Shown: positions 8,277 to 43,782, counted from the stretch's first letter. The stretch: 64,000 bases of DNA from Candidatus Zixiibacteriota bacterium (GCA_020346225.1 CP070777.1:2764736-2828735); one strand, 5' to 3'. Numbers and translations: made by a program. The notes: generated from the sequence alone by a model not told the origin.

Positions 8277-8582
8277 CTTACGCCTCCTCATTGTCAAAAC
8301 CCGGACGCGGCCGGGTATTTTCGATTTCTGATCCGATATGATTAAATTCGGCGGATTACGACCGGCAATTTAACTTTTTCCTGAGAAGTCTTGACGGGGT
8401 GATTCGGAGTTGGCCGGATAGTCGACCGCCGGGGGCGTACGAAACCGGTTGAGCGCCCCATCTTGCTGTTTTACAGCGCATTGCGCGTCCCTAAAGATTG
8501 TTGTGGTTCCCGCTTTGGCTCAAGTATGGAGGGAACCGGTCGATATCAGGTTATAGCAAAGCTAGGAAAAGAGGCTAGGAAA

Positions 8583-10830: not shown

Positions 10831-11037
10831 AAGCGTGTTCCCCCCGCCGTTAAGAAGTTATTGTTGTAATATACGTGCCAACCCATATTATGTCAAAACA
10901 AGCGCAATTCCGGCGACCCTGAGCCAGAGCCGCCTCTCTTTGTCTCCAGCCGGTTCATCACGGCTCATCTCGGGGCCGACAACGACGTAATGGCGATAAA
11001 ATCTCAAATCAGGCAGAATCATAACAGGGGGAATGCT

Positions 11038-12744
11038 ATGCGCACAAGATCAGGGAGGATAATGCTGGCCATGACTATCATACTGCCGGTAGTTCTGGCC
11101 GGATACGCGGGCGGTGCTGAAGAGCCGACCAGGGCCCCGTTGCGGCCGGTGACTGAGCGGGAGGTGTCACCCGGCCGGGGATTTGTCCAGCCTCGCCTGG
11201 ACCTGTCGCATCTTACCGGCCAGCAGTTGCCCGCCGGTGTTACCGCCTCGGCGCTGCCGGCCCAGTGGGACTGGCGAGCGCAGGGAGTGGTCACGCCGGT
11301 GAAGAACCAGGGCTTGTGCGGCTCCTGTTACTCCTTTGCCGCCCTGGCAAATTTCGAATCGCGAATTCTTGTTGTCGGCGGGCCGCCTTTTGACTTCTCG
11401 GAGAACAACGCCAAGGAATGTAACTGGTACCAGAGCAGCTGCGGCGGCGGCTCCTGTGATATCATGGCCAACTGGTTGTCGAAAACGGGCACTGTCGACG
11501 AAATATGCGACCCGTACGTTCCGAGCGACGTAGCCTGCAACTCGAGTTGCCCTTATATCAAAACTCTGCTGGACTGGCGTATTATCAGCGAATTGAGCGT
11601 ACCGTCCACGGCGGTGCTCAAACAGTACATCTATGACTATGGTCCCGTCTACACCAGTTTTTATGCCGGTGACGGCAATGACCCCGACTGGGAAGACGAG
11701 TTCAATGACTACGACGGCTTATACACGATGTACTATGACGGTGTCTGGCTGCCCAACCACGCCGTCCTTATTGTCGGCTGGGACGATGCCATGCCGCACG
11801 ACGGCGGCACCGGGGCCTGGATCGTGAAAAACAGCTGGGGGCCGTCCTGGGGCGGGACCTGCGGCTACGGCACCGAGGGGGGTTATTTCACTCTCGCCTA
11901 CGGCTCGGCCAACATCGGTATGAATTCGTCGTTCATAAAGGCCTGGCAGGATTACGACTCCGACGGCGACGTGCTCTTTTACGATGAGGCCGGCGCCACC
12001 AGCTACTTTGGCTCCGGCAGCACCACCGGCTGGGGCATGTGCAAATTCGTTATGCCCGCGACAGCCTATGTCTACCGGATCGAGTTCTGGACGAGCGATA
12101 TCACCACTGATGTTGACGTGTATCTATGGGACGATTTCACAGGCGGGACTTTGAGCACCCCCATCGACAGCAAACTGAACTCGAGTTTCGCCGAGGCCGG
12201 ATACCACTCGGTTGAACTTGATTCTCCTCACGAGCTTACCACCGGCGAGGACTTCTATGTAGCGGTCAAGTTCACCAATAATTCCCACGCCTGGCCCATA
12301 CCGGCCGACGTGACAGGTCCCAATGAGATGGGTACTACGTATATCAGTTCCGATGGCTCGACCTGGACGGACCTGGGCGCCGCTTGGGGCGACGATGTTG
12401 CCATCCGTGCACGTACCAGCGTCGACCTGCCCGTGTCTGTTGCCGATACCCCCGAGCCGACGCCTTACGCATACAGTCTCTCGCACAACTATCCCAACCC
12501 GTTCAATCCCGCCACCAGGATTTCTTATTCGCTCGAAAGGCGTTCCCAGGTTCAGCTCGTGGTCTACAATATCCTGGGGCAGCGGGTGGCGACCCTGGTG
12601 GATGAGGTCATGCCTGCCGGCCAGCATACCGTCAGCTGGAACGGCACCGACGATTCCGGAAACATGCTTGGTTCCGGTGTCTACTTTTATCGGTTCAAAG
12701 CGGGTGACTTCACTGACACCAAGAAGATGGTGTTGCTGAAATAG
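11038..12744 (+). CDS. C1 (papain-like) cysteine peptidase with a T9SS-type C-terminal sorting domain
   Basis: GGGGGA RBS 6 nt before the ATG at 11038. Signal peptide present. Catalytic Cys motif NQGLCGSCYSFA, with HAVLIVGWD and NSWG. C-terminus NYPNPFNPATRISYSL...GVYFYRF...MVLLK. Confidence 0.88.
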   Translation: MRTRSGRIMLAMTIILPVVLAGYAGGAEEPTRAPLRPVTEREVSPGRGFVQPRLDLSHLTGQQLPAGVTASALPAQWDWRAQGVVTPVKNQGLCGSCYSFAALANFESRILVVGGPPFDFSENNAKECNWYQSSCGGGSCDIMANWLSKTGTVDEICDPYVPSDVACNSSCPYIKTLLDWRIISELSVPSTAVLKQYIYDYGPVYTSFYAGDGNDPDWEDEFNDYDGLYTMYYDGVWLPNHAVLIVGWDDAMPHDGGTGAWIVKNSWGPSWGGTCGYGTEGGYFTLAYGSANIGMNSSFIKAWQDYDSDGDVLFYDEAGATSYFGSGSTTGWGMCKFVMPATAYVYRIEFWTSDITTDVDVYLWDDFTGGTLSTPIDSKLNSSFAEAGYHSVELDSPHELTTGEDFYVAVKFTNNSHAWPIPADVTGPNEMGTTYISSDGSTWTDLGAAWGDDVAIRARTSVDLPVSVADTPEPTPYAYSLSHNYPNPFNPATRISYSLERRSQVQLVVYNILGQRVATLVDEVMPAGQHTVSWNGTDDSGNMLGSGVYFYRFKAGDFTDTKKMVLLK

Positions 12745-22507: not shown

Positions 22508-22895
22508 AGAGTCTCTCCTTAAACGAGCAACCGATTCATTGGCAACTCAGGCTCGCACGTTAACCGGCAAGCATCTGAATTGCCGCTTCAGAAATTTCAA
22601 CTGTGAATCCCAACCCAATGTAAACAGACATGGCCTATGCCACCAATATAAGGTTCGGATCTGCCCCGCGATGTGCCAATTATCCTCTAACTTCACCACT
22701 TAAGTCTCATGTCCGGCACAACAGCGCCGGAACTCTCATTGGCCCCGCCTACTTTAACGAAATAAGCTCCCGAATGGCACCCGTTACGCAATTTCTGCTC
22801 GACGACGACCCCTCCGGTAACCTCAAGCCCGCTAGTGCACTCAGGAGCCTAGCGGCAATCTCTGTAACCCGTTACAATGCAATAAAACCGGGTAA

Positions 22896-22913
22896 CCCAC
22901 AGCTTGCTGTGGG
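22896..22913. repeat. REP-like palindrome, copy 1 (inverted relative to copies 2 and 3)
   Basis: CCCACAGC-TT-GCTGTGGG with a conserved GGTTACCC flank. Confidence 0.7.
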
Positions 22914-22934
22914 ATCCTTGCGCGGTGGCACTCG

Positions 22935-23189
22935 CTACAACTCATAATCATCCATCCTCAGCGGCACATCCTTCACACTGCCGCGCGCGGGCAGCATGAC
23001 CAAATGCACATGCTCCGGCATGACAACATACCCCAGCAGACGGAAACGATGCCTGAGGCGAGCGGCGTCAAGCTCTTGGATCGGCAGTTCTGTAGCGCGG
23101 AGACAGGTAAGGTAGGGCTGGAGTCGATAGCAGCAGAAAGTCACAAAGCGACCGGTGCCGGCATGATCATAGTGTCGCAGTTTCGGCAT
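22935..23189 (-). pseudogene. Truncated REP-associated tyrosine transposase (RAYT, IS200/IS605 Y1 family)
   Basis: The 84 aa carry FVTFCCY and the HUH motif PEHVHLV, then stop far short of the catalytic-Tyr region. A possible C-terminal remnant (TGGVVVEQ) lies out of frame at about 22780-22850. Confidence 0.7.
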
Positions 23190-23219
23190 GATATCAGTGC
23201 CCTGCCAGATTGGTGCGAC

Positions 23220-23237
23220 CCCACAGCAAGCTGTGGG
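23220..23237. repeat. REP-like palindrome, copy 2
   Basis: CCCACAGC-AA-GCTGTGGG followed by GTTACACAGGTTACCTG. Confidence 0.7.
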
Positions 23238-23361
23238 TTACACAGGTTACCTGATTTCAAATGACGCTGAAGTATCCTCCCGCTTGCAGGCCCTGCTGAA
23301 ATAACGGGGATGAAAGCGGGTTTGTCAAATGGTTTAGGGCGCTGTGCCCAGGCAGTGTGAT

Positions 23362-23379
23362 CCCACCGCAAGCGGTGGG
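23362..23379. repeat. REP-like palindrome, copy 3
   Basis: CCCACCGC-AA-GCGGTGGG. An A>C / T>G compensatory pair keeps the palindrome intact. Confidence 0.65.
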
Positions 23380-23458
23380 GTACCAAGTTGCCTGATGTCG
23401 TTTGTGCTCGTTGAGCCGAACAACTCAATAGCTGCTTTTTACATGAATCCATCAAAGA

Positions 23459-23535
23459 TGGTACCCCCGGCAGGACTCGAACCTGCTACCCTCTGCTTAG
23501 AAGGCAGATGCTCTATCCGGATGAGCTACGGGGGC
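23459..23535 (-). tRNA. tRNA-Arg (anticodon TCT), CCA encoded
   Basis: Manual cloverleaf: GCCCCCG-TA-GCTC-ATCCGGATA-GAGC-A-TCTGC-CTTCTAA-GCAGA-GGGTA-GCAGG-TTCGAGT-CCTGC-CGGGGGT-A-CCA. Confidence 0.9.
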
Positions 23536-23667: not shown

Positions 23668-23696
23668 GCAAAAAGCCCCCTGGCAGGCAGGAGGCT
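23668..23696 (-). terminator. Rho-independent terminator of the cytochrome operon
   Basis: Minus strand reads AGCCUCC-loop-GGGGGCU (one G-U pair) followed by UUUUU. Confidence 0.7.
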
Positions 23697-23724: not shown

Positions 23725-24879
23725 CTAGTGCAGCGACAGGCTCCGGACATATTCGCCCGGAGGTGCATCCTCGTGGGTACGGCCGTCGTCGTGGCAGCCG
23801 GAGCAGTCCGGCATCTTGTCAAATGCCTTGCCCGGGTGGCAGTCGGTGCATTCCAGTTCGACATGAATTTCATCTAGCTGCAGCCCCACTCTCACGTGGT
23901 TGAAATTGGCCTGGTTCCAGCCGCCGTGACAGGCGGCGCACTCTCTGTTAAGTCGGGCAATTTTCCGGCCCGTCGGGTGGCAGCTGCGGCAGCCGAGTTT
24001 CTCATGATATTTGTTCAGCGGCCAGCCGACCGAGGCGTGCGAGAACCCGGGTTTCTGGCCGGTGTCATGACACTTGCCGCAGGGATCGTTGAGATGGCAG
24101 TCGTTGCAGATAGCATGAATCTCCTCGTCGGTCTTGCCCAGCCGCAGCTCTTTGTCCAGGTCATGGCAATAGCTGCAGTTTTCCTGCTGGTGACAGTCCA
24201 CGCAGCGCAAACCGTACAGGTCGATGTGGTCCTGGTGATGCAGGGTGACCGTGGGCGCCTCTTCATGAGGCGTGACCCAGACCTTTACGTCGGGGACGGT
24301 AATTTCCGGGTGGGGGATACCCACGATATCGGTCGAATCATGCGGAGCGGCGGAGAAGGCCGAGCCTTCGTGTGGAAGATGGCATACGACACACTTGGTG
24401 TCGTGGCTCCATTCGCGGTGGCATCCCATACACTGGCGGTGGAAAGCGCCTTTCAGTCCCGGCTGCCTCAGGTTCGGCGGGCCGGCCGGTTCCTCGCCGT
24501 GACATTCCGCGCAGGGAGGGAATTTGCCGGCCGGGCTGTAATGGTGGCAGATGCTGCAGCCTTCACCCATTCCGACCATCTCGGCATGATGCTTGTGGTC
24601 GAACCTGACCGGCCCGTACAACTGCTCCAGTTCGTCCAGCATGGCCATATCGGGGCCCTCAGTGGCCGAGTGAGCCGGCGTGCTCGTGACGCCTGTCCGC
24701 AGGCATTTGCTGAGGCATGGTTCGCTCCTTGTAGGTGTCTGGCAAACGTGGCAGTCGCTGCACGGGGTGCGAGTGGCGTCCGGAACCGGTCGGTCCTCGG
24801 GCTGACCCAGCACGGTTATTCCCGACAGAGTTATCAACAGCAACAAACACGCCAGCGCAATGCCTATATTTCTGTCCAT
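23725..24879 (-). CDS. Periplasmic multiheme cytochrome c (13 CxxCH motifs), paralog 2
   Basis: AAGAGGAG RBS before the ATG at 24879. Signal peptide present. 13 CxxCH motifs counted by hand. Collinear with the upstream paralog. Confidence 0.88.
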   Translation of the reverse strand: MDRNIGIALACLLLLITLSGITVLGQPEDRPVPDATRTPCSDCHVCQTPTRSEPCLSKCLRTGVTSTPAHSATEGPDMAMLDELEQLYGPVRFDHKHHAEMVGMGEGCSICHHYSPAGKFPPCAECHGEEPAGPPNLRQPGLKGAFHRQCMGCHREWSHDTKCVVCHLPHEGSAFSAAPHDSTDIVGIPHPEITVPDVKVWVTPHEEAPTVTLHHQDHIDLYGLRCVDCHQQENCSYCHDLDKELRLGKTDEEIHAICNDCHLNDPCGKCHDTGQKPGFSHASVGWPLNKYHEKLGCRSCHPTGRKIARLNRECAACHGGWNQANFNHVRVGLQLDEIHVELECTDCHPGKAFDKMPDCSGCHDDGRTHEDAPPGEYVRSLSLH

Positions 24880-24930
24880 TCTACGAGACTCCTCTTGATT
24901 AGATGTGGGCCCAGCCTGCCATTGCAAACC

Positions 24931-26091
24931 TTAGCCGCTGGATAGCGGTTTCACATACTCTCCGGGCGGGCCGTCTTCATGGTTGCGGCAATCGTCGTGG
25001 CATGCCGAGCACTTCGGTATCCGGTTGTACGCCTGGTTCATATGGCAATCGCCACAATCCAGCTCGCCATGCAGGTCATCCAGCCGCAGCCCGGTCACGA
25101 CATGCCGGAAATTTGTCTGGTTCCATCCGGCGTGACAGTCAACGCACCGATTGCTCAGGTGGCCGATAGGCCGTCCGGTGGGATGACAGGAACGACAATT
25201 CAATTCCTGATGGTATTGATTCAGGACCCAGCCGCCGTTGGCCGCATGTGAGAAAGCGGGCTTTTCCGAATGACCGTGGCACCTGGCGCAGGGATCGTTG
25301 GCGTGGCAGTCGTTGCAGATCGCGTGAATCTCCTCGTCGGTCTTGGCCACCCGCTTTTCCTTCTGGTAATCGTGACAATAGCTGCAGTTTTCCTGCTGGT
25401 GGCAATTGACACAGCGAAGCCCGAACAAATCGATATGCTCCTGGTGGTGAAACGTCACCACCGGCCCGGCGTCATACGGGGTCCTCCAGACTTTCTTCTC
25501 CGGCGCTGTGATGACCGGATGCGGTGTGCCGAGTATATCGGTGCCGTCAGCACTGGCCGAGGCCAGAGTGGCTCCATTGGCCGGCAGGTGACATAACACG
25601 CACTTGGTGTCATGGCTCCACTCGCGGTGGCAACCCATACACTGACGATGGTAGGCGCCTCTTAAACCGGGCTGTCTCAAAGTCTGGGCCTCGGTCGGCT
25701 CGTTGGCGTGGCATGTTTTGCACGGCGGGTATTTGGCGTCTGTGCTGTAGTGATGGCAAATACCGCAGCCTTCGCCCATACCGACCATCTCGGCATGGTG
25801 CTTGTGGTCGAACCGGACCGGCTGGTACAACCTCTCCAGTCCGCTCAATATGGCCACGTCCGGACCCTCCGACGGTGAATGGACCCTGGTCTCGCGATCG
25901 TGCGTCCAGAGACACATTTCCAGACAGGGGTCGGCCGTGGTCGGCGTGGAACAGGCATGACAATCGGTGCAGGGCGGCTGAGTGGCGTCCTGCTGCGACG
26001 ACATGTCCGGTGATTGGGCCAGGATCGGCAGTCCCGTGAAGGCCAATATTAGAAGCGAAGCGGTAAGCCAAAGGCTAGTCATCTTTTTCAT
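24931..26091 (-). CDS. Periplasmic multiheme cytochrome c (13 CxxCH motifs), paralog 1
   Basis: Signal peptide MKKMTSLWLTASLLILAFTGLPILAQ. 13 CxxCH motifs at positions matching paralog 2. Confidence 0.9.
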   Translation of the reverse strand: MKKMTSLWLTASLLILAFTGLPILAQSPDMSSQQDATQPPCTDCHACSTPTTADPCLEMCLWTHDRETRVHSPSEGPDVAILSGLERLYQPVRFDHKHHAEMVGMGEGCGICHHYSTDAKYPPCKTCHANEPTEAQTLRQPGLRGAYHRQCMGCHREWSHDTKCVLCHLPANGATLASASADGTDILGTPHPVITAPEKKVWRTPYDAGPVVTFHHQEHIDLFGLRCVNCHQQENCSYCHDYQKEKRVAKTDEEIHAICNDCHANDPCARCHGHSEKPAFSHAANGGWVLNQYHQELNCRSCHPTGRPIGHLSNRCVDCHAGWNQTNFRHVVTGLRLDDLHGELDCGDCHMNQAYNRIPKCSACHDDCRNHEDGPPGEYVKPLSSG

Positions 26092-26157
26092 CTCTCGAGA
26101 CTCTTTCCACCGGGTACTTCCCGGTAATCAGGCTGTAGTAGCCGGCACCGAAGCTTA

Positions 26158-26277
26158 CTACTTGCTTTCCTTCCTGTCAAGCAGCAACCAGAATATCATG
26201 AACAGCGCCATGGCTCCGATGGCTATCAGGTATTCCTGCCCCTTGGTTAGCATCATGAAATCGTGTAGTACATGCAT
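26158..26277 (-). CDS. Small single-TM protein (39 aa), below the ORF-track length cut-off
   Basis: Hand translation gives MHVLHDFMMLTKGQEYLIAIGAMALFMIFWLLLDRKESK*. AAGGAGAA RBS 6 nt upstream of the ATG (GGAG core 9 nt), immediately after the NrfD stop. Fills the gap between NrfD and the cytochrome. Confidence 0.6.
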   Translation of the reverse strand: MHVLHDFMMLTKGQEYLIAIGAMALFMIFWLLLDRKESK

Positions 26278-26289
26278 CTTCCGTTCTCC

Positions 26290-27510
26290 TTAATGATCCG
26301 GATCATCGGCATAAGCCGGGTGCTTTCTCAGGATGGGCATACGGTTGACAATGAACCGGAACGTGAGGACGCCAATGGTAATAACCGTAATGGTGACCCC
26401 GAACTCCATCCAGTGCGGAACATAGCGGTCGGGCTGCTGCCAGTTGAGGGCAATAATCGAGACATTCACGCGGTTGAAAATAACGCCCAGAATGGACCAT
26501 ACGGCGCCGACCCGCACCCAGCCCGGGGAGTGCCGGCGGGTGGCCCAGAACAACAGCAGGCAGGGCGCCAGCACAAAGCCGAGCACCTCGAGCAGGAACC
26601 ACGAACCGAGAGGAGTGGCCAGGTAATCCCAGTTGTGGTCGTGCGCCACCCCGACCCATTTGAGGCAGAAGTAGGTGAACAGCAGGGCCGTGGCCCCTTT
26701 GCCCAGGCCGAGGGTTATATCGTCGAGATTCTTGTGGTCCTGATGCGTGACCTGGTCGCCGAAAATCCGGTGTGACAGCATACTCTCGAAGATCACCATG
26801 GTCATGCCGGCGATAATCGCCGAGACAAAGAAGAACACCGGAATAAAGGGCGAATACCAGAGCGGGTGCAATTTGGCTCCGGCGAGCAAGAACAGCGCCC
26901 CCAGGGCCGACTGATGAAGGGTGGACAGGATCACACCAAGGATGGTCGCTCCGATGGTGATACGAACGGCCCACTTGCGGAAATTCTTCCAGCCCAGCCA
27001 TTCGAACAAAGCCGGACAGAATTCCAGAAACTGGACGGTCAGGTAGGTGGCCACGTGCCATCCGACCAGGAACATGACGGAGGTGACGCCGTAAGAAACG
27101 ACCATAGGGAAAGGAAGGCGCCACGGCCGTCCCAGGTCATAGCACAGTCCGACGACGACAAAGGCGTATCCAAGGAAACCCGTCAAGACGGCGGGACGGA
27201 CCACCGGTCTGTACTTCTTCATGCCGAACAGGTACACGGCCGTGCCGGTCGTGAAACCACCGGCCGCCAAAGCGACGCCACTGAGAACGTCGACGCCGAT
27301 CCAGAGCCCCCAGGGATTAGTATCCGTCAGATTGGAGATCGCCCCGATGCCCTGGGTGAAGCGGATGTAAGTCAGGGGAATCCCGACCGCCAGTATGGCC
27401 GCCACGACGGCGTTAAACGGGGTGATCAGGCCCCTGAGATAATCGGGCCAGCTCATGCCCAGAAGCAGTTTCTCGGATACCCAGTTCGCTCTTCTATCTA
27501 TCGTTGCCAT
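26290..27510 (-). CDS. NrfD/PsrC-family polytopic membrane quinone-interacting subunit
   Basis: 406 aa with about 10 hydrophobic helices. NrfD-like pattern. The start overlaps the stop of the upstream FeS gene. Confidence 0.82.
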   Translation of the reverse strand: MATIDRRANWVSEKLLLGMSWPDYLRGLITPFNAVVAAILAVGIPLTYIRFTQGIGAISNLTDTNPWGLWIGVDVLSGVALAAGGFTTGTAVYLFGMKKYRPVVRPAVLTGFLGYAFVVVGLCYDLGRPWRLPFPMVVSYGVTSVMFLVGWHVATYLTVQFLEFCPALFEWLGWKNFRKWAVRITIGATILGVILSTLHQSALGALFLLAGAKLHPLWYSPFIPVFFFVSAIIAGMTMVIFESMLSHRIFGDQVTHQDHKNLDDITLGLGKGATALLFTYFCLKWVGVAHDHNWDYLATPLGSWFLLEVLGFVLAPCLLLFWATRRHSPGWVRVGAVWSILGVIFNRVNVSIIALNWQQPDRYVPHWMEFGVTITVITIGVLTFRFIVNRMPILRKHPAYADDPDH

Positions 27511-28430
27511 CGTGTATCCCTTTCTCCGGTGTCAGCGTCCGACTCGGTTTTGGCTGCTTCGCGGCTCTGAGTGAACTTGTAGAATCCCGTAAACAGAACC
27601 GGCCAGATGGTTAGAACCAGCGGTACGACGCTCAGGAATCCGCGCGTCAATTCCGGGTACGGTGTATTACCCAGGTTGTTGGAGAAACCGATGTTGGTGA
27701 AATCGGTCCCGGCCAGGTAGAGCCAGCCGGTGCCGCCAACCTCGGACTCACCGTAAAGGTATGGGTGATACCGCTCCGGGTTGTGACGGATTTTCTCGCG
27801 GGCCAGCGTGATGAGATCGCTGCGCTTGCCGAACGTTATCGCCTCCTTCGGGCAGACATCGGCACAGGCCGGGATCTTGCCCTCCTTGATCCGGTCATAG
27901 CACATGGTGCATTTGCGCACCTGCGGGGCAAAGGCGTCGAAGTAGTCGTAGGTGGGAACGTAAAACGGACAGGCCATCATGCAGTACCGGCAACCGATAC
28001 AGACGTCTTTATTGTAAATGACCGGGCCCTCTTTGGTCTTGGTGAAGGCGGCGACGAGGCAGGCCGAGGCACAGGCCGGCTCGTTGCAGTGCATACACTG
28101 CTTCTTGACATAGATGGGCGTTTCCGGGTCCCTGGGATTGGGAAAGCGGTTGACAACCGTGTAACTGTTGGGGTCAGTCCGACGGGTGCGCTCAAAAACG
28201 CTGTTGTCGTTCAGGTCCAGGCCGTCCATAGGCCTGTCATTGGCCTTCTTGCAGGCTTCCTCGCACCGGCGGCAGTTGGCACCGATACAGAGTGTCGTAT
28301 CGGTGAGCATGCCGTATCGATCTGGCCACCCCGTGAAACTCTCCATGCCCTTGGCGGCCGAAGATGTTGCCAGAGCGGCGGTGGCAGCAGCGGTGGTAAT
28401 TTTGAGGAATTCCCTTCGTTTGATGCTCAT
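27498..28430 (-). CDS. Tat-exported 4x[4Fe-4S] ferredoxin-type subunit (NrfC/HybA-like) with a C-terminal TM anchor
   Basis: Twin-arginine signal SIKRREFLK. Four Cys clusters (CxxCxxC..., CMHCNEPACASAC, CIGCRYCMMACP, CTMC...CADVCP). Hydrophobic tail FLSVVPLVLTIWPVLFTGFY. Confidence 0.88.
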   Translation of the reverse strand: MSIKRREFLKITTAAATAALATSSAAKGMESFTGWPDRYGMLTDTTLCIGANCRRCEEACKKANDRPMDGLDLNDNSVFERTRRTDPNSYTVVNRFPNPRDPETPIYVKKQCMHCNEPACASACLVAAFTKTKEGPVIYNKDVCIGCRYCMMACPFYVPTYDYFDAFAPQVRKCTMCYDRIKEGKIPACADVCPKEAITFGKRSDLITLAREKIRHNPERYHPYLYGESEVGGTGWLYLAGTDFTNIGFSNNLGNTPYPELTRGFLSVVPLVLTIWPVLFTGFYKFTQSREAAKTESDADTGERDTRWQR

Positions 28431-28622
28431 TGATTACCTCTTGCTGATATTAATATTGCTTACGTTACGTCGTCACTATGTGAAAAGATTCACATTTTTC
28501 GCCAAAAAAAACCCTCAAGCTGCGGCCAAAATACTGCCATCCGGCATCTTTGTCAACCATAACTGACAGCCTGGAGTTGAAATCGAAAACAAACCTTCGG
28601 TGGGCCTCGACTCCGAGCTTAA

Positions 28623-28696
28623 TCGGGGTGAGAGGATTTGAACCTCCGACATCTTGCTCCCAAAGCAAGCGCGCTGCCAGACTGCGCCACACCCCG
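28623..28696 (-). tRNA. tRNA-Pro (anticodon TGG), CCA not encoded
   Basis: Manual cloverleaf: CGGGGTG-TG-GCGC-AGTCTGGCA-GCGC-G-CTTGC-TTTGGGA-GCAAG-ATGTC-GGAGG-TTCAAAT-CCTCT-CACCCCG-A. Confidence 0.88.
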
Positions 28697-28851
28697 ATTG
28701 GTCGGCCTCAATTATACCGTTTCATTAAATATGTGTCAAGCCTTTGTCCTCGGCTAATCTCGTTTAAGATATTATCCTAAGGTCAGTTATCGACGCCACG
28801 GGTTTTATTCTCACTTGCCAAATCTCGTTTTTGTCTTAAATTCCGGTCATC

Positions 28852-29892
28852 ATGTCAAAACAGAACTTACTCGGCTATACCTCGCGGGAACTCGAAGACC
28901 TGGTTGCGGCCATGGGTGACAAGGCCTACCGCGGCCGTCAACTCTTCCGCTGGCTCTACAAGACACGGCAGTACGACTTCAACCTGATCACCGACCTCTC
29001 CAAGGACCTCCGTCGCCGCCTCCATGAATCATACGACTTCACGGGGCTGTCACTGGCCCGATCGGCCGTTTCCGAGGATGGTACCAAAAAGTTCGTATTC
29101 CGTCTTTACGACGGCCAGCCGCTGGAAACCGTGCTGATACCGGACGAGAGCGGCCGAAGCACCGTTTGCCTGTCGACCCAGGTGGGTTGTGCCCTGAACT
29201 GCGGTTTTTGTGCCACTGGCAAGATGGGCTTTCGCCGCAACCTGTCGGTGGGGGAGATTATCGGCCAGCTCATCTACCTGCGCGACTGGCTGGGTGACAA
29301 TGCCTTCACCAATATCGTCATGATGGGCATGGGCGAGCCGCTGCTTAATTTCGATAACGTGGTCAAAGCCGTTTCCGTCATTTCAGCGGGCGACGGGCTG
29401 TCGGTCAGTGCTAAGAAAATCACCGTTTCGACGGTCGGCATTCTCGACAAGATCCGCCGTTTGGCCGATTTGAAACTAAAGGTTCGTCTGGCTGTATCAC
29501 TGAATGCAGCTATTCAGGACAAGCGTATCCGGATTATGCCGATTGCCCAATCGTGCAGCCTGGAGGAGCTGTCCGACACGCTCAGGTATTACACGGAGAA
29601 GACATCGACCAGGGTCACTTTCGAGTATATTTTGTTTGACGGCTTCAACGATAGTATAGACGATGTAATGGCTATCAGTCGCTATATTCAGGGGATTCCC
29701 TGTAAGATCAATTTGCTGGCCTATAACCCGGTCGAGGGCGCCGAATTCGGCCGGCCCTCGGATGAAAAGGTGGACTGGTTTGCCAGACAACTGTATCCTC
29801 GAGCTCCCGCCGTTACGGTCAGGAAAAGCCGGGGAAGGGATATCGATGCCGCCTGTGGTCAACTGGCTGCCCGGCACCTAATGAAGGAGTGA
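28852..29892 (+). CDS. rlmN: 23S rRNA/tRNA (adenine-C2)-methyltransferase RlmN (radical SAM)
   Basis: Radical-SAM motif CALNCGFCATG. RlmN-type N-terminus (YRGRQLFRWLY) and C-terminal DIDAACGQL. Confidence 0.92.
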   Translation: MSKQNLLGYTSRELEDLVAAMGDKAYRGRQLFRWLYKTRQYDFNLITDLSKDLRRRLHESYDFTGLSLARSAVSEDGTKKFVFRLYDGQPLETVLIPDESGRSTVCLSTQVGCALNCGFCATGKMGFRRNLSVGEIIGQLIYLRDWLGDNAFTNIVMMGMGEPLLNFDNVVKAVSVISAGDGLSVSAKKITVSTVGILDKIRRLADLKLKVRLAVSLNAAIQDKRIRIMPIAQSCSLEELSDTLRYYTEKTSTRVTFEYILFDGFNDSIDDVMAISRYIQGIPCKINLLAYNPVEGAEFGRPSDEKVDWFARQLYPRAPAVTVRKSRGRDIDAACGQLAARHLMKE

Positions 29893-29897
29893 ACCGA

Positions 29898-31301
29898 ATG
29901 ACCAAATTTTCCATCATCGGAGGACTGATTTTACTGGTTGGCGTTTTCCTGAACGCTTTCGCCCAACAGCCTGATCTTGTTATTAATGAGTTTAAGGAAC
30001 CTTCCTGGAAGTGGGGCGACCAGACCCTTGGTTTCGACATCTCCAATACCACCGATATGGTCAAATTCGTGGTCACCGAGGTGGATATCGAGTTTCCTGA
30101 CAGCCGTACCGGGTGCCACAGACAGTTTCTCTCGAGCGGTTACATCGAGCCCGGCGCCCATACCCTGCTTGAAACCGACTTCTTCGTGCCCGGAAACTAT
30201 GGCGAGGCCAGGGTGACGGTGGTCCTTCACGACGTGGTGGACACGCTTGACGCCCTGTTCCCGGGACAGGATTTTCACCGTGAGGAGATTGCTTTCACCG
30301 TGGTGCGTCCGGAATCCATGCTGGAGTGGCGCGATTACCGAATAGAGCTACCTCCCCGAATCGAGGAGCATCCTTATTTCGACAGCGAATTCAGCCGAGT
30401 ACTTCTGGCCCTCATTGACCGGGGTGTGTCCGTTGAGCGCATGGCCGAGATGGCCGGTACCAGCGTGCTTTTCGTAAACGGGCAGATTGTTCCGATGGTG
30501 ACTCACGGTCTGATGACACAGACGGCCGACGGTTACCGGCTCAATTTCCCGATAATTGGTGTCGATGAGTCCCGCGAGGCGGTGCGGCTGGCCGAAACCG
30601 CGGCCGGCTCTCTCGCCCCTATCATTGCGGCCAACCTGCAGCGGTATCCGGCCTTTCTGGACAGTTTGACGCGCAGCGGGCTGGTTGAGCCGACCAATAT
30701 TCTGGGCGGGACCAGCGTGCTCGAACGCCTGTACCCGATGGTGGGCGGTCTGCTTCTGTGGTTCGACCTGGGAGACCGGTTCGTTGACAGCGGCGTAACG
30801 ATGGCGCCGTTCGTCGCCAGCGACATATGCAACGCCCTCAGTCACCGCTATATGTATGCCGCGCCCGCAGGTGAGGGATACAACGGCAACCACCTCTATG
30901 CGTATCTGGGCGAGGTAAAGTCCTACAAGATCGTCTTTGCCGATAACCCGGTTGAGGTCGATTGCAGTCGCAGTTATTCATTTGTGGGTCGACCGGGCAC
31001 CCAGCGGAGTTGGCAATGGGGCGACGATCTTCGGCCCGATTTCTTCATAGTCGACACCCTGGCGATACGCCCGGCCCTAGACTTCCTGGCGTCGGGCTGT
31101 GAAACCGTCCTGGCGGCTGCTGCCGGCTCTCTCGACGATCTGGGCGGCAGGTTCGGACACGGCCAGAATATGAGAGGCGTGCGTTATTGGTTCTGGAATA
31201 TCGTGGCGACACGCTGCCTCGAAACGCTGGTCGCCAACGGTGCCCTCAAAGATGATGGCAAGGGACTCTATGAGTTCAGCGCCATGCGGGGGAAATTATG
31301 A
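29898..31301 (+). CDS. Secreted hypothetical protein
   Basis: AAGGAG RBS 8 nt before the ATG at 29898. Signal peptide ...FLNAFAQ. No recognised motif. Confidence 0.6.
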   Translation: MTKFSIIGGLILLVGVFLNAFAQQPDLVINEFKEPSWKWGDQTLGFDISNTTDMVKFVVTEVDIEFPDSRTGCHRQFLSSGYIEPGAHTLLETDFFVPGNYGEARVTVVLHDVVDTLDALFPGQDFHREEIAFTVVRPESMLEWRDYRIELPPRIEEHPYFDSEFSRVLLALIDRGVSVERMAEMAGTSVLFVNGQIVPMVTHGLMTQTADGYRLNFPIIGVDESREAVRLAETAAGSLAPIIAANLQRYPAFLDSLTRSGLVEPTNILGGTSVLERLYPMVGGLLLWFDLGDRFVDSGVTMAPFVASDICNALSHRYMYAAPAGEGYNGNHLYAYLGEVKSYKIVFADNPVEVDCSRSYSFVGRPGTQRSWQWGDDLRPDFFIVDTLAIRPALDFLASGCETVLAAAAGSLDDLGGRFGHGQNMRGVRYWFWNIVATRCLETLVANGALKDDGKGLYEFSAMRGKL

Positions 31302-31708
31302 TACGGCCCGGGGTAGTGGCAGTGGTCCTGTTGCTTCTTACCGGCTGCGGTCAGGAAACACCCAGCCGCGACCAGATACCCCCGCTCAGGCAGCGGCTTT
31401 TCGACCTGCAGCAGGCCGTGTACAACCATGACCGTGCCGCTATTGACTCCCTGCTCTCGGTCAAGATAATCTCTCGTGACCAGGGGTCCGATTCACTGCT
31501 CAGTTTCGTGTATGGACCTGCCGGCGACTTCCCGTTCGAGCGGTTCGGCAATTATGATATCGTGTATACCACTGACCGGGCTCGTATCGGATGTTTCATC
31601 ATGGACTCCACCGCTTCCGCTGACCGTCCCTTTACGCTGTTTCTCGCCTACGAACATGATATGTGGCTCTTCACGAGCTTTGAGCCCGGGACCGACAGCG
31701 TGCCCTAG
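31298..31708 (+). CDS. Small lipoprotein, unknown function
   Basis: ATGA start/stop overlap with the upstream gene. Lipobox LLLTGC. Confidence 0.6.
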   Translation: MIRPGVVAVVLLLLTGCGQETPSRDQIPPLRQRLFDLQQAVYNHDRAAIDSLLSVKIISRDQGSDSLLSFVYGPAGDFPFERFGNYDIVYTTDRARIGCFIMDSTASADRPFTLFLAYEHDMWLFTSFEPGTDSVP

Positions 31709-39966: not shown

Positions 39967-41028
39967 ATGACATATATGCTGTTATCACGCGGTAAAAGAA
40001 GCACGGTTGGTCTGGACATCGGGGCGAATTCGATAAAGTTGGTCAAGCTTGATCACTCCAAGTCCGGTTACTCTGTGTCGGCCATCGGCGTCCGCGAACT
40101 GCCGCCGGAAGCTATTGTGGCCGATGAAATCAGAGACCGTGAAGCAGTGATTTTCAATATCCAGTCCCTGATTGACCAGACGGACCCCAAGATAAAGGAC
40201 GTTGTCGTTTCAATATCGGGCCACAGCGTCATTACCGACCGCTTCTGTATCGACAAGAAGACCGGCGCCGAAGCCGAGCAGGCCATTCTTTTCGAGACCG
40301 AGCAGCGCGCGCCGTTTGATATCGAAGACGTGTCGCTTGATTATCACGTTGTCAAAACCGACGATGACAGCAACAAGATGGACGTGTTGCTGGTGGCCGC
40401 GCGTAAGGAATATCTGCGCATGTACCTCGAACTGATCCAGGATTGCGGTCTGCACCCGGTGATCGTCGACGACGACGCTCTGGCCATCTACAACGCCTAC
40501 ACGGAGAACTACGAAGTCGACCCGACCAGGGTGACGGCTCTGGTGAATATCGGCCATGATGTCACCAATATCACTTATCTGCAGGACGGTATGTTCCAGT
40601 CGACGCGCGACGTTTCGGCCGGCACCAGGGAAATCTACAACGCCATCCAGAAAGAATTCCGACTCAATCCTGAATTGACGGCCAAGGCCATAAAGGGCGA
40701 CATGAAGGACTCCATCGACGAGGATATGCTCAAGGCGACCATCATCTCATCGACCGACGAGCTTATCTCGGGCGTGGAACTGGCCTTCTCGTACTTCAAG
40801 TCTCAGGCCAAGGTCGAAAGTATAGATTGGATCGTGCTCTCGGGCGGCGGCTCGTTGGTACCGTATCTTCCGGAGTTCCTTCAGTCCAAGCTAAACGTGC
40901 CTCTGGAAATCGCCAACCCGCTGCGCAACGTGGACTACGATCCGGAGTTGTTCCAGTACCTCCAACCGGAAAAGATTGCGCCGCTGCTGACGGTTTCGGT
41001 TGGTTTAGCCATGCGGAAGGTGAGGTAG
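39967..41028 (+). CDS. pilM: Type IV pilus assembly protein PilM (actin-like ATPase fold)
   Basis: GLDIGANSIKLVKL N-terminus. Length and position upstream of pilN/O/P/Q fit PilM. Confidence 0.88.
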   Translation: MTYMLLSRGKRSTVGLDIGANSIKLVKLDHSKSGYSVSAIGVRELPPEAIVADEIRDREAVIFNIQSLIDQTDPKIKDVVVSISGHSVITDRFCIDKKTGAEAEQAILFETEQRAPFDIEDVSLDYHVVKTDDDSNKMDVLLVAARKEYLRMYLELIQDCGLHPVIVDDDALAIYNAYTENYEVDPTRVTALVNIGHDVTNITYLQDGMFQSTRDVSAGTREIYNAIQKEFRLNPELTAKAIKGDMKDSIDEDMLKATIISSTDELISGVELAFSYFKSQAKVESIDWIVLSGGGSLVPYLPEFLQSKLNVPLEIANPLRNVDYDPELFQYLQPEKIAPLLTVSVGLAMRKVR

Positions 41029-41035
41029 AGCACTT

Positions 41036-41776
41036 ATGATAGATATAAATCTACTTCCAAAGGATTACCTGAAAAGGTCATTCGACCTCTCCCTGGGTAA
41101 GACCGGCATGTATGCCCTCGGTGGGGCGGCCGCAGTCCTGGTGACGCTGGCAATTGTGACCGTCTCGATGAAGGCCAGACTGGGCAGCACCGATGACAAA
41201 ATCGCCAAAGCCCGTCAGAGACAGGCGGTGCTTATGGAGGATATCAAGGTGGTCGATGCTCTCACCGACGTGAAACAGAAAATCACGCACCGGATGAGAG
41301 CCGTGGAGAAGCTCGACAGCCGGCGCTCGGCCTGGGTCAGGGTCCTTGAAGACGTTGCCCGCAACGTGCCGGAGTTCGTCTGGCTGGGCCGGTTCCAGGA
41401 GAAATCTCCCGAAGCCGACAACCTCGATAAGGCCAAGCGGGGGGCCACCGCCGCAAAACAACAGCAGGAGCCGAAAGCCGAACCGCAAAAGGCCCCACCC
41501 CTGCCGCCTTTTCAGAAGGGCGAAGTGGAGGGCTATGCCTTCACCCTTAACGCCCTGGCCTCGTTTATGATCAAGATGATGCGCTCGGACTATTTCGACG
41601 AGGTTGAGCTGGTCACCACCAATGAAGTAAGTATAGATGAGAAGAAAGCTTATAACTTCGTGCTGAGCTTCAATATTCACTATCTCTCGGATGAGCAGCT
41701 GCGCAGTCTGATTGCCTCCGAGGATGAACAGAGCCAGCCGCAAGACTCCAAAACTACCCATAAGAGCTTAAACTAG
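41036..41776 (+). CDS. pilN: Type IV pilus assembly protein PilN (with a charged insertion)
   Basis: N-terminal IDINLLP motif, a single TM helix and a coiled segment. Synteny supports the call. Confidence 0.8.
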   Translation: MIDINLLPKDYLKRSFDLSLGKTGMYALGGAAAVLVTLAIVTVSMKARLGSTDDKIAKARQRQAVLMEDIKVVDALTDVKQKITHRMRAVEKLDSRRSAWVRVLEDVARNVPEFVWLGRFQEKSPEADNLDKAKRGATAAKQQQEPKAEPQKAPPLPPFQKGEVEGYAFTLNALASFMIKMMRSDYFDEVELVTTNEVSIDEKKAYNFVLSFNIHYLSDEQLRSLIASEDEQSQPQDSKTTHKSLN

Positions 41777-41787
41777 GATAAACCGTT

Positions 41788-42408: not shown

Positions 42409-42419
42409 GAGGTAATTAG

Positions 42420-43763: not shown

Positions 43764-43782
43764 CGAAAGGCAGGTAGGAAAT

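What the first reader, a model, noticed from the sequence alone, without database searches (positions are those of the whole stretch)
23725..28430. NrfCD-type quinone module wired to two tandem 13-heme cytochromes, bracketed by two tRNA genes
The minus-strand operon encodes five products:
- A Tat-exported four-cluster FeS protein with a C-terminal TM anchor (27498-28430).
- An NrfD-family membrane subunit (26290-27510, overlapping the FeS stop).
- A 39-aa TM peptide.
- Two collinear paralogous cytochromes (24931-26091 and 23725-24879), each with 13 hand-counted CxxCH motifs.

The operon contains no molybdopterin or other catalytic subunit and no outer-membrane porin-cytochrome partner. It therefore looks like a menaquinol to periplasmic 26-heme wire conduit, reminiscent of Hmc/Nhc/Qrc or ACIII cores but with a different cytochrome complement. 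The five genes sit exactly between tRNA-Pro (28623-28696) and tRNA-Arg (23459-23535), all on the same strand. The tRNA-Arg side shows integration scars, so the module may be horizontally mobile.
Basis: partly seen in the sequence, partly recalled or inferred. Interest (0 to 1): 0.6.

Follow-up and report, generated by a model that had tools for sequence, protein, structure and literature searches.

The report
Hmc-like quinone module, twin 13-haem cytochromes
This is a real, intact five-gene respiratory operon from an uncultured Zixibacteria genome: a membrane module of the Hmc/Nhc type joined to two copies of an uncharacterised but widespread 13-haem cytochrome. It is a new variant of a known kind of quinone-to-periplasm electron gate, not a new kind of system.

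Summary
There are five minus-strand genes, 13 CxxCH motifs in each cytochrome, and flanking tRNA-Pro(TGG) and tRNA-Arg(TCT).

The module is more specific than generic "NrfCD". The FeS protein, membrane subunit and 39-aa peptide are best matched by HmcB, HmcC and HmcD. HmcE and HmcF are absent, so the layout is Nhc-like.

The cytochromes are not HmcA or NhcA. Only residues about 65-169 (haems 2-5) are homologous to the C-terminal tetrahaem domain of HmcA and of the nine-haem cytochrome.

They belong to a large unnamed family of about 380 aa. All 13 CxxCH motifs, 13 further His and a three-Cys cluster are conserved. Relatives occur in 438 species genomes.

In 73 of 80 loci examined, the cytochrome sits next to an FeS plus NrfD-type pair of the Hmc/HybAB clade.

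The tandem pair is a duplication specific to one small lineage.

The tRNA bracket is conserved synteny, not a fresh insertion. The "scars" are a decayed REP-associated transposase with REP palindromes. Divergence of the operon compared with its flanks does suggest an old whole-operon replacement at this locus.

The most likely function is menaquinone-to-periplasmic cytochrome electron exchange. The direction is unresolved. Similar NrfCD-plus-multihaem modules have already been proposed for Melioribacter, MBNT15 and Geobacter Cbc3/Cbc4.

The parts
28528..28556 (-). Promoter-like site (TTGACA-17-TATTTT, 10 of 12) between tRNA-Pro and the FeS gene. It is the likely operon promoter.
   Evidence: Consensus scan. 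This is a pattern match only.
27498..28430 (-). HmcB-like, Tat-exported ferredoxin subunit with four [4Fe-4S] clusters and a C-terminal membrane helix (310 aa).
   Evidence: NCBIfam HmcB scores 408.7 bits (cutoff 420). The next hits are HybA at 220.7 and FdnH-type at 126.5. Pfam finds Fer4_11 and a weak TAT_signal. There are 16 Cys in four groups of four and a helix at 265-283. The closest solved chain is FdnH, 1kqf_B.
26290..27510 (-). HmcC-like integral membrane subunit of the NrfD family, with no cofactor motifs (406 aa). It is the presumed menaquinone/menaquinol site.
   Evidence: NCBIfam HmcC scores 519.9 bits (cutoff 550). HybB scores 254, QrcD 89.9 and DsrP 29.6. Pfam NrfD is found. A hydropathy scan shows multiple helices. 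phmmer finds no solved homologue.
26158..26277 (-). HmcD-like single-helix peptide (39 aa).
   Evidence: NCBIfam HmcD scores 35.7 bits, above its cutoff of 34. It has one hydrophobic helix at residues 15-33. It is conserved at 59-79% identity in the five closest loci.
24931..26091 (-). 13-haem periplasmic cytochrome c, copy A (386 aa; Sec signal peptide).
   Evidence: It has 13 CxxCH motifs. All of them, plus 13 other His, are conserved in 84 homologues. Residues 65-169 match the C-terminal domain of HmcA and 9HcA, and residues 286-369 match the small tetrahaem cytochrome STC. NCBIfam HmcA scores 42.6 against a cutoff of 400.
23725..24879 (-). 13-haem periplasmic cytochrome c, copy B (384 aa), a tandem paralogue of copy A.
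   Evidence: It is 63% identical to copy A. It has 13 CxxCH motifs. It keeps every invariant column of the family alignment. The duplication is shared with L001 and L002.
23676..23693 (-). Terminator-like GC hairpin followed by a T-run, 32 nt after the stop of copy B.
   Evidence: Consensus scan. The sequence was read.
28622..28697 (-). tRNA-Pro(TGG), the upstream boundary. It has its own perfect 12-of-12 sigma-70 consensus promoter at 28711-28739.
23459..23535 (-). tRNA-Arg(TCT), the downstream boundary.

Best explanation
The operon encodes a membrane redox complex of the Hmc/Nhc type.

Composition:
- An HmcC-like NrfD-family subunit exchanges electrons and protons with the menaquinone pool.
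- A Tat-exported HmcB-like protein with four [4Fe-4S] clusters sits on its periplasmic face, held by a C-terminal helix.
- An HmcD-like one-helix peptide completes the membrane part.
- The periplasmic electron-transfer arm is a 13-haem cytochrome of a distinct, widespread family, here present as two diverged tandem copies. It replaces HmcA and NhcA.

Proposed mechanism:
- The cytochrome probably docks on the FeS subunit through its tetrahaem domain (haems 2-5). This is the only part homologous to the C-terminal domain of HmcA and NhcA.
- Its other nine haems, probably all bis-His, extend into the periplasm.
- Electrons then pass quinol/quinone <-> FeS chain <-> haem chain <-> soluble or outer-membrane redox partners encoded elsewhere in the genome.

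Direction: I favour menaquinol oxidation, that is, electron export towards periplasmic or extracellular acceptors, at roughly 55:45 over the Nhc-like quinone-reducing direction.

Shown here: gene content, export signals, cofactor motifs and their conservation, homology of each subunit, and conserved gene adjacency.

Inferred: complex formation, the docking domain, the direction of flow and the partners.
For: Subunit identities:
- HmcB scores 408.7 against a cutoff of 420, HmcC 519.9 against 550, and HmcD 35.7 against 34 (pass). All are far above Qrc, Dsr, Nrf and Psr-type models.

Cofactors:
- The FeS protein has 16 Cys in four groups of four.
- Each cytochrome has 13 CxxCH.
- In 84 homologues all 13 motifs are conserved: 12 are fully invariant, and C167 of the fifth is conserved in at least 90% of sequences. 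Exactly 13 further His are invariant.

Domain homology:
- Residues 65-169 match the last domain of HmcA (1gws, 1h29; E=5e-28) and of the nine-haem cytochrome (1ofw, 19hc; about 1e-17).
- Residues 286-369 match Shewanella STC.

Partnership:
- Among the 80 best of 438 species-level loci, 73 have the FeS gene, the NrfD gene and the cytochrome adjacent. Four more are consistent but truncated.
- The cytochrome partners only with modules of the HmcBC/HybAB clade.

Transcription unit:
- The operon has its own promoter-like and terminator-like sites.

Direction:
- No NiFe-hydrogenase-like ORF was found in any of the 80 loci.
- 15 of 80 loci carry further multihaem cytochromes, including CbcL-like cytochrome c + b fusions.

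Literature:
- NrfCD modules lacking a catalytic subunit and paired with multihaem cytochromes have been proposed as quinol:acceptor reductases in Melioribacter roseus (PMC3534657) and MBNT15 (PMC9386147).
- Geobacter Cbc3/Cbc4 have the same architecture (PMC13591261).
Against: - HmcB and HmcC fall just below NCBIfam's equivalog cutoffs.
- The closest characterised relatives (Hmc, Nhc, Hyd-2 HybAB) work mainly in the opposite direction, feeding periplasmic electrons to quinone or the cytoplasm (PMC8076601, PMC4215793). Homology therefore argues against the export direction I favour.
- Bis-His c3-type haems are usually low-potential (general knowledge). That also suits quinone reduction.
- No partner, donor or acceptor is encoded in the window.
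- Complex formation and docking are untested. The AF2 model was too poor to use (pLDDT 59).
- There is no experimental or expression evidence for any family member.
Confidence: 0.72

Rival explanations
1. It works in the Nhc/Qrc direction. The 13-haem cytochromes collect electrons from periplasmic donors, such as hydrogenase or formate dehydrogenase via small cytochromes, or Fe(II) via an outer-membrane conduit. They then reduce menaquinone through the FeS and NrfD subunits.
For: - The membrane module is closest to HmcBCD and next closest to HybAB.
- The majority type of module partnered with this cytochrome family is HybA/HybB-like.
- Nhc is described as a TpIc3:quinone oxidoreductase and Hyd-2 as an H2:quinone oxidoreductase (PMC8076601).
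- Nhc/Tmc-type complexes serve hydrogen utilisation in Desulfovibrio (PMC4215793).
- The probably all-bis-His haem set is typical of low-potential c3-type carriers (general knowledge).
Against: - No hydrogenase, formate dehydrogenase or tetrahaem c3 gene lies next to the module in the window or, by a crude motif test, in 80 related loci.
- The host lineages are not classical sulfate reducers.
- Neighbouring multihaem and CbcL-like genes in 15 of 80 loci look more like electron-export clusters.
Confidence: 0.33
2. It is a canonical Hmc (or Nhc) complex of dissimilatory sulfate or sulfite respiration, simply with rearranged genes.
For: HmcB, HmcC and HmcD are the top NCBIfam hits, and HmcD passes its cutoff. 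The cytochrome shares a domain with HmcA and 9HcA.
Against: - The cytochromes score 42.6 and 42.8 bits against the HmcA cutoff of 400, and 28.5 and 35.1 bits against the nine-haem cytochrome cutoff of 640.
- Residues 170-386 have no counterpart in HmcA.
- HmcE and HmcF are absent from a unit bounded by two tRNAs.
- The gene order is B-C-D-A-A, not A-B-C-D.
- No dsr, apr or qmo genes are in the window.
Confidence: 0.05
3. The five genes are a recently acquired mobile island that integrated between two tRNA genes.
For: - tRNA genes flank the operon.
- A transposase remnant lies beyond tRNA-Arg.
- In relative L002 the tRNA-Pro is duplicated around a 2.9-kb insert, so the site is recombinationally active.
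- Operon proteins are far more diverged between module types than the flanking RlmN. The NrfD subunit is 85% versus 38% identical at equal RlmN identity of about 70%.
- The Hmc-type operon also occurs in other contexts (L003, L004, L014).
Against: - GC content is the same as the flanks.
- There is no integrase, and no direct repeats of tRNA 3' ends.
- The transposase is a truncated REP-associated (RAYT) gene with its REP palindromes. It lies outside the bracket and is not an island-mobilising element.
- The bracket and the upstream synteny block are conserved in at least 6-11 other genomes.
- The tandem duplication predates the split from L001 and L002, which are only about 70% identical in RlmN.
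- Any transfer was therefore ancient: a xenologous replacement, not a recent island.
Confidence: 0.1
4. The cytochrome is itself a catalytic multihaem enzyme, a reductase or oxidase for a small molecule. That would make the operon a complete quinol:substrate oxidoreductase like NrfABCD or MccACD.
For: - No separate catalytic subunit is present.
- Three additional invariant cysteines (C47, C56, C60) directly follow haem 1 and have no explanation.
- The family is self-contained as a three-gene unit in most genomes.
Against: - Exactly 13 invariant non-motif His are available for 13 haems, which is consistent with all-bis-His coordination.
- There is no CxxCK, no CXnCH and no known active-site signature.
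- The only homologies are to electron-transfer cytochromes: the HmcA/9HcA domain, STC and c7.
Confidence: 0.08

Closest known systems
Nhc complex (NhcABCD) of Desulfovibrio desulfuricans / D. piger
   Same: - An Hmc-type FeS subunit, an NrfD-like subunit and a small one-helix subunit, with no HmcE or HmcF.
- A periplasmic multihaem cytochrome as the only peripheral partner.
- The cytochrome shares a homologous tetrahaem c3-like domain (PMC8076601, PMC4215793).
   Different: - The cytochrome has 13 haems, not 9, and is homologous only over about 105 residues.
- It scores 28-35 bits against the nine-haem model's cutoff of 640.
- The gene order is B-C-D-cyt-cyt instead of A-B-C-D.
- There are two cytochrome copies.
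- The host is Zixibacteria, not a Desulfovibrio.
Hmc complex (HmcABCDEF), Desulfovibrio vulgaris
   Same: HmcB, HmcC and HmcD are the best-matching models for the three membrane-module genes. Residues 65-169 of the cytochrome match the last domain of HmcA (1gws, 1h29).
   Different: - There is no HmcE or HmcF cytoplasmic module.
- The cytochrome is not a 16-haem HmcA (42.6 bits against a cutoff of 400).
- It is not in a sulfate-respiration context.
E. coli hydrogenase-2 membrane module HybA/HybB
   Same: It belongs to the same clade of FeS plus NrfD-like subunits. Most partners of this cytochrome family elsewhere (65 of 80 loci) are HybA/HybB-like. In the one such locus tested (L018), HybB scored 353 bits against 299 for HmcC.
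   Different: There is no hydrogenase. A multihaem cytochrome takes the place of HybOC. The window's own module scores higher as Hmc than as Hyb.
Geobacter sulfurreducens Cbc3 (CbcVWX) and Cbc4 (CbcSTU); Melioribacter roseus NrfCD (Mros1571-1572); MBNT15 'cluster 2'
   Same: They share the architecture of FeS protein + NrfD-like membrane protein + multihaem cytochrome without a molybdopterin subunit. All are predicted to be menaquinol:periplasmic cytochrome oxidoreductases for extracellular electron transfer (PMC13591261, PMC7894505, PMC3534657, PMC9386147).
   Different: - The Geobacter cytochromes have 4-5 haems.
- Their physiological roles are also unknown.
E. coli NrfBCD, Qrc and alternative complex III
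   Same: Each is an NrfD-type quinone module with an FeS subunit and periplasmic multihaem cytochrome(s).
   Different: - Scores are low: NrfC 91.7 against 377.6, QrcC 63.5 against 400, and QrcD 89.9 against 570.
- There is no molybdopterin-like QrcB or ActB subunit.
- There is only one NrfD-like subunit.
- There is no terminal NrfA.

Membership tests
Hmc complex (HmcABCDEF) | 16-haem cytochrome HmcA | tested here: not met
   NCBIfam CxxCH_16_HmcA scores 42.6 and 42.8 bits against a cutoff of 400, aligned only to HmcA positions about 442-538. The cytochromes have 13 haems. PDB profile matches are confined to query residues 31-175.
Hmc complex (HmcABCDEF) | HmcB FeS subunit | tested here: inconclusive
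   It is the best hit at 408.7 bits, full length, but just under the equivalog cutoff of 420.
Hmc complex (HmcABCDEF) | HmcC NrfD-like membrane subunit | tested here: inconclusive
   It is the best hit at 519.9 bits, full length, but under the cutoff of 550. The next hit is HybB at 254.
Hmc complex (HmcABCDEF) | HmcD small membrane peptide | tested here: met
   It scores 35.7 bits against a cutoff of 34 and has one hydrophobic helix.
Hmc complex (HmcABCDEF) | HmcE (cytochrome b) and HmcF (HdrD-like) cytoplasm-facing subunits | tested here: not met
   There are no further ORFs between tRNA-Pro and tRNA-Arg. None of the 33 larger window ORFs scanned had such domains.
Nhc complex (NhcABCD) | Nine-haem cytochrome NhcA | tested here: not met
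   NCBIfam 9HemeCytC scores 28.5 and 35.1 bits against a cutoff of 640. Only the C-terminal tetrahaem domain of 1ofw/19hc aligns.
Nhc complex (NhcABCD) | B, C and D subunits of Hmc type, with no E or F | tested here: met
Nhc complex (NhcABCD) | TpI-c3:menaquinone oxidoreductase activity | not testable with these tools
   This needs biochemistry. No c3 or hydrogenase gene is in the window.
Hydrogenase-2 (HybOABC) | HybA and HybB, plus adjacent NiFe hydrogenase subunits | tested here: not met
   HybA scores 220.7 against 263 and HybB 254 against 450. There are no hydrogenase genes in the window, and no NiFe large-subunit motifs in 80 related loci.
Qrc (QrcABCD) / alternative complex III | Molybdopterin-like QrcB/ActB subunit, with QrcC/QrcD or ActC/ActF | tested here: not met
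   There is no such gene in the operon. QrcC scores 63.5 against 400 and QrcD 89.9 against 570. ActB (6f0k_B) matches at only 50 bits over the ferredoxin part.
Unnamed 13-haem 'cytochrome c3 family' proteins partnered with HmcBC/HybAB-type modules | About 380 aa; 13 conserved CxxCH; 13 further invariant His; a CxxCHxC-x8-C-x3-C start; adjacency to an FeS and NrfD gene pair | tested here: met
   Both window copies keep every invariant column of the 84-sequence alignment. Adjacency holds in 73 of 80 loci.
Geobacter Cbc3/Cbc4-type menaquinol:cytochrome c oxidoreductases | FeS + NrfD-like subunit + multihaem cytochrome, with no catalytic subunit | tested here: met
   The architecture is met. Sequence relatedness to CbcV/W/X and CbcS/T/U was not tested. 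CbcX has 5 haems and CbcS has 4 (PMC7894505, PMC13591261).

The most novel reading that the evidence does not exclude
The 13-haem family may be the dedicated periplasmic arm of HmcBC/HybAB-clade modules in hundreds of uncultured Zixibacteria, Ignavibacteria-like, Acidobacteriota and related species. It could be their main menaquinone-pool gate for extracellular electron transfer. That would make it a fourth inner-membrane 'gateway' class alongside CymA, ImcH and CbcL. Its invariant three-cysteine cluster next to haem 1 might give unusual redox or ligand chemistry. In the window's lineage, the duplicated copies might be tuned to different potentials or partners.
Probability: 0.3. Interest if true: 0.65.

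Novelty: new variant of a known kind. Interest (0 to 1): 0.42.

Why it matters
Inner-membrane quinol-to-periplasm gateways are characterised only in Shewanella (CymA) and Geobacter (ImcH, CbcL, CbcBA). For the many uncultured sediment and aquifer phyla with abundant multihaem cytochromes, the gateway is unknown.

This analysis defines a conserved three-gene unit: an FeS subunit, an NrfD-type subunit and a 13-haem cytochrome. It is present in at least 438 species-level genomes.

The cytochrome keeps one HmcA/NhcA-like domain, which is a plausible docking domain. The cytochrome combines with either Hmc-type or Hyb-type membrane modules.

That gives a concrete, testable candidate. It also shows how respiratory modules are re-assorted.

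The concept itself has already been proposed for Melioribacter, MBNT15 and Geobacter Cbc3/4, so this is incremental rather than surprising.

Tried and rejected
- **Exact-sequence look-up of cytochrome A:** nothing found. The NCBI protein starts 3 residues later.
- **AlphaFold2 with the 84-sequence alignment:** the model was poor (pLDDT 59, pTM 0.31). The Foldseek PDB search on it returned only 9HcA and HmcA at E of about 0.01, TM about 0.2. That is consistent with the sequence result but adds no evidence. No further fold searches were run.
- **Literature searches for 13-haem, NhcA and Zixibacteria Hmc:** no description of this family was found. Pereira et al. 2011, where I recall (from memory, unverified) a mention of 13-haem NhcA variants in some sulfate reducers, is not in the library.
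- **Second homologue search seeded from a Deltaproteobacteria-labelled member:** it returned only MAG and metagenome proteins with generic names. No cultured host was identified.
- **Cupredoxin lipoprotein downstream of the operon in L001 and L002:** considered as a partner. It is absent from the window and from other loci, so it was rejected as a conserved component.
- **Rfam:** no regulatory RNA in the operon region.
- **Pseudogenisation of one copy:** rejected, because every invariant residue is retained.
- **Compositional anomaly:** none.
- **tRNA-end direct repeats:** none.

Full report
**1. Observation**

A script count gives 13 CxxCH motifs in each cytochrome, with no CxxCK or extended motifs.

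The two cytochromes are collinear and 63% identical. For copy B the ATG at 24879 is preceded by GAGGAG and gives the 384-aa protein that NCBI also annotates, so it is the likely start.

The FeS gene overlaps the NrfD-type gene by 13 nt. The FeS protein carries an RREFLK twin-arginine motif, 16 cysteines in four groups of four, and a single C-terminal hydrophobic helix.

ARAGORN and Rfam both find tRNA-Pro(TGG) at 28622-28697 and tRNA-Arg(TCT) at 23459-23535 on the same strand.

A promoter-like site (10 of 12) lies between tRNA-Pro and the FeS gene. A GC hairpin with a T-run follows the second cytochrome. tRNA-Pro has its own perfect consensus promoter. The five genes therefore look like one transcription unit, separate from the tRNAs.

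**2. What the parts are**

NCBIfam identifies the three membrane-module proteins as follows:

| Protein | Best model | Bits | Cutoff |
|---|---|---|---|
| FeS protein | HmcB | 408.7 | 420 |
| Membrane protein | HmcC | 519.9 | 550 |
| 39-aa peptide | HmcD | 35.7 | 34 (passes) |

The next best families are HybA and HybB of hydrogenase-2 (220.7 and 254 bits). Qrc, Dsr, Nrf, Ttr and Arr models score far lower. So this is specifically the Hmc/Nhc/Hyb clade of NrfCD-like modules, and the small peptide is not an orphan.

HmcE and HmcF are absent, which gives the Nhc-like subunit set.

The cytochromes fail the HmcA model (42.6 and 42.8 bits against 400) and the nine-haem cytochrome model (28.5 and 35.1 bits against 640).

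A profile of 84 family members was searched against all PDB sequences:
- Residues about 65-169 (haems 2-5) are homologous to the C-terminal tetrahaem c3-like domain of HmcA (1gws, 1h29; E=5e-28) and of the nine-haem cytochrome (1ofw, 19hc; about 1e-17).
- Residues 286-369 weakly resemble the Shewanella small tetrahaem cytochrome.
- The middle part, with two doubled CxxCH-x4-CxxCH pairs, and the N-terminal haem 1 have no solved relative.

The protein is therefore a mosaic of 1 + 4 + 4 + 4 haems. It is not a truncated HmcA.

**3. The cytochrome family**

The source is a Candidatus Zixiibacteriota MAG (locus tag JSW34_12340).

The family is large:
- More than 1,400 hits in the 5.8-billion-protein set, with more than 120 at about 50% identity and about 380 aa.
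- 294 clusters at 50% identity with E <= 1e-30 in the exhaustive search.
- Relatives in 438 species-level genomes.

Members are named only 'hypothetical' or 'cytochrome c3 family protein'.

In an 84-sequence alignment:
- All 13 CxxCH motifs are conserved. Twelve are fully invariant, and one cysteine of the fifth is conserved in at least 90% of sequences.
- Exactly 13 further histidines are invariant, which fits 13 bis-His electron-transfer haems.
- Three extra cysteines directly after haem 1 (CxxCHxC-x8-C-x3-C) are invariant and unexplained.

Both window copies keep all of these, so neither is decaying.

**4. Conserved partnership**

In the 80 best genome loci, 73 have an FeS gene, an NrfD-type gene and the cytochrome adjacent. 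Four more are consistent but cut by contig ends. The hosts are labelled Zixibacteria, Ignavibacteria, Holophagae, Thermoanaerobaculia, Myxococcota, Eisenbacteria, Deferrimicrobium and others.

Three arrangements occur:

| Arrangement | Loci | Module type |
|---|---|---|
| B-C-D-cyt | Window plus 5 loci | Hmc-type, 69-85% identical to the window |
| B-C-cyt, no D | 65 loci | B about 46% and C about 38% identical to the window. The one locus scanned (L018) scores best as HybB (353 bits against 299 for HmcC) and as HmcB/HybA |
| (GcvH-like membrane protein)-cyt-B-C | 3 loci | Hmc-type module |

So the 13-haem cytochrome is the constant. It combines with different members of the HmcBC/HybAB clade.

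This is the strongest evidence that the cytochrome and the module work together. The only domain shared with HmcA and NhcA is a reasonable candidate for the docking surface. That last point is inference.

**5. The tandem pair**

Two cytochrome genes occur only in the window and in L001 and L002, which are two complete Zixibacteria chromosomes. L002 is B-C-D-cyt-D-cyt, so the duplicated unit was probably D + cytochrome.

A neighbour-joining tree places the duplication in the common ancestor of these three genomes. The '26-haem' feature is thus a lineage-specific elaboration of a normally 13-haem system.

**6. The tRNA bracket and mobility**

tRNA-Pro(TGG) upstream and/or tRNA-Arg(TCT) downstream of the module recur in about 13 of 80 loci. 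Six loci (L018, L027, L033, L041, L046, L048) have both within 2 kb. L002 has tRNA-Arg 2.3 kb downstream. Several of these loci also share the window's upstream block of S41 peptidase, lipoprotein, 470-aa protein and RlmN.

GC content equals that of the flanks.

The 'integration scars' are two things. One is an 84-aa fragment of a REP-associated tyrosine transposase (NCBIfam 38 bits, aligned to positions 3-68 of a 146-position model). The other is three copies of the palindrome CCCACAGCWWGCTGTGGG at 22896, 23220 and 23362, against zero expected by chance. This is a decayed RAYT/REP element outside the bracket, not an island junction.

There is, however, a clear discordance. L002 (Hmc-type module) and L018 (Hyb-like module) are equally distant from the window in RlmN, but not in the operon proteins:

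| Protein | L002 | L018 |
|---|---|---|
| RlmN | 70% | 69% |
| NrfD subunit | 85% | 38% |
| FeS subunit | 77% | 45% |
| Cytochrome | 66% | 53% |

The Hmc-type operon also occurs in unrelated contexts without tRNAs (L003, L004, L014).

The simplest reading is an old replacement of the whole operon by a xenologue at the same tRNA-flanked site. Differential loss of ancient tandem paralogues is not excluded.

In L002 the tRNA-Pro is duplicated around a 2.9-kb insert. This shows that the site is recombinationally active.

**7. Function**

Nothing in the 64-kb window supplies a donor, an acceptor or an outer-membrane conduit. The neighbours are peptidases, type IX secretion cargo, a type IV pilus cluster and housekeeping genes.

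In the related loci no NiFe-hydrogenase-like ORF was detected by motif. 15 of 80 loci carry further multihaem cytochromes, including CbcL-like cytochrome c + b fusions.

The closest characterised modules (Hmc, Nhc, Hyd-2) carry electrons from the periplasm to quinone or the cytoplasm (PMC8076601, PMC4215793).

Architecturally equivalent modules lacking a catalytic subunit have been proposed as quinol-oxidising entry points for Fe(III) reduction. Examples are Melioribacter roseus (PMC3534657) and MBNT15 (PMC9386147). Others are the still uncharacterised Geobacter Cbc3/Cbc4 (PMC13591261, PMC7894505). Zixibacteria RBG-1, which carries a family member (P0064, from accession AMWB02), has MtrAB-like genes elsewhere in its genome (PMC3903129).

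I conclude that the complex is a menaquinone:periplasmic multihaem cytochrome oxidoreductase. I lean slightly (about 55:45) towards menaquinol oxidation, but the direction is not resolved by sequence.

**8. Comparison, novelty and score**

It works like Nhc, NrfBCD and Cbc3/4.

It is not a member of Hmc. HmcA, HmcE and HmcF are not met.

It is not a member of Nhc in the strict sense. NhcA is not met, although the B, C and D subunits are.

It is a new variant of a known kind: a distinct, widespread but unnamed cytochrome family serving Hmc/Hyb-type modules, here duplicated.

No cultured host or experimental datum was found for the family.

Interest is moderate at 0.42. It is a useful, testable candidate for the missing inner-membrane gateway in several uncultured phyla. 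The concept is already in the literature, and nothing about the anatomy is surprising to a specialist.

Noticed in passing
window 22885-23380: There is a truncated REP-associated tyrosine transposase (RAYT) gene at 22935-23189 (84 aa). It is flanked by 32-nt inverted arms (22885-22916 and 23217-23248). Three copies of the palindrome CCCACAGCWWGCTGTGGG lie here and nowhere else in the 64 kb.
   Followed up: yes
window 28711-28739 (minus strand): A perfect 12-of-12 sigma-70 consensus promoter (TTGACA-17-TATAAT) lies immediately upstream of tRNA-Pro. This is notable for a Zixibacteria genome.
   Followed up: no
cytochrome A residues 41-60 (window about 25912-25971, minus strand) and all 84 homologues: There is an invariant Cys cluster directly after the first haem motif (CxxCHxC-x8-C-x3-C). 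It has no counterpart in HmcA or NhcA. Its role is unknown; it could be a disulfide, a haem ligand or a metal site.
   Followed up: partly
L069 6813-7499; L075 7169-7831; L077 7235-7897; L079 2557-3944: In loci with the order cyt-B-C, the cytochrome is preceded by a membrane-anchored GcvH-like protein of about 220 aa (Pfam GCV_H, 68.8 bits). In L077 its N-terminal helix resembles HmcD (35% identity over 34 aa, pairwise E=5e-7). L079 has two copies. A lipoyl-carrier-like domain attached to an Hmc-type module is unexplained.
   Followed up: partly
L002 2407-2480 and 5389-5462: A duplicated tRNA-Pro(TGG) brackets a 2.9-kb insert with two ORFs that have no Pfam match (490 and 346 aa). The insert lies between RlmN and the operon. 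L002 also carries a second HmcD-like gene between its two cytochrome genes (9261-9377).
   Followed up: partly
L002 10876-11283; L001 about 12130-12552: A cupredoxin (plastocyanin/azurin family) lipoprotein is encoded just downstream of the tandem cytochromes in the two closest relatives. It is not in the window. It is a possible high-potential periplasmic partner in those genomes.
   Followed up: partly
L014, L029, L042, L043, L058, L059, L064, L066 (e.g. L029 9190-11199): CbcL-like fusion proteins lie next to the module in about 8-10 of 80 loci. They combine an 11-19-haem cytochrome c with a C-terminal cytochrome b561/Ni_hydr_CYTB membrane domain.
   Followed up: partly
proteins P0121, P0127, P0133, P0137: These are giant cytochromes of 1,200-2,300 aa. 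They contain 17-32 tandem repeats of the unit that forms the C-terminal STC-like part (profile positions about 305-372) of the 13-haem family.
   Followed up: no
window 29889-31301 and 31298-31708: A 470-aa secreted protein and a 136-aa lipoprotein have no Pfam or NCBIfam match. Both are conserved in synteny with RlmN and an S41 peptidase across several Zixibacteria-type genomes.
   Followed up: partly
window 39967-45069; 4150-6558; 8463-9437; 10990-12744: There is a type IV pilus assembly cluster (PilM through secretin). There are also several predicted surface proteins: one with FG-GAP repeats and a dockerin domain, and two with type IX secretion sorting domains, including a papain-family protease.
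   Followed up: no
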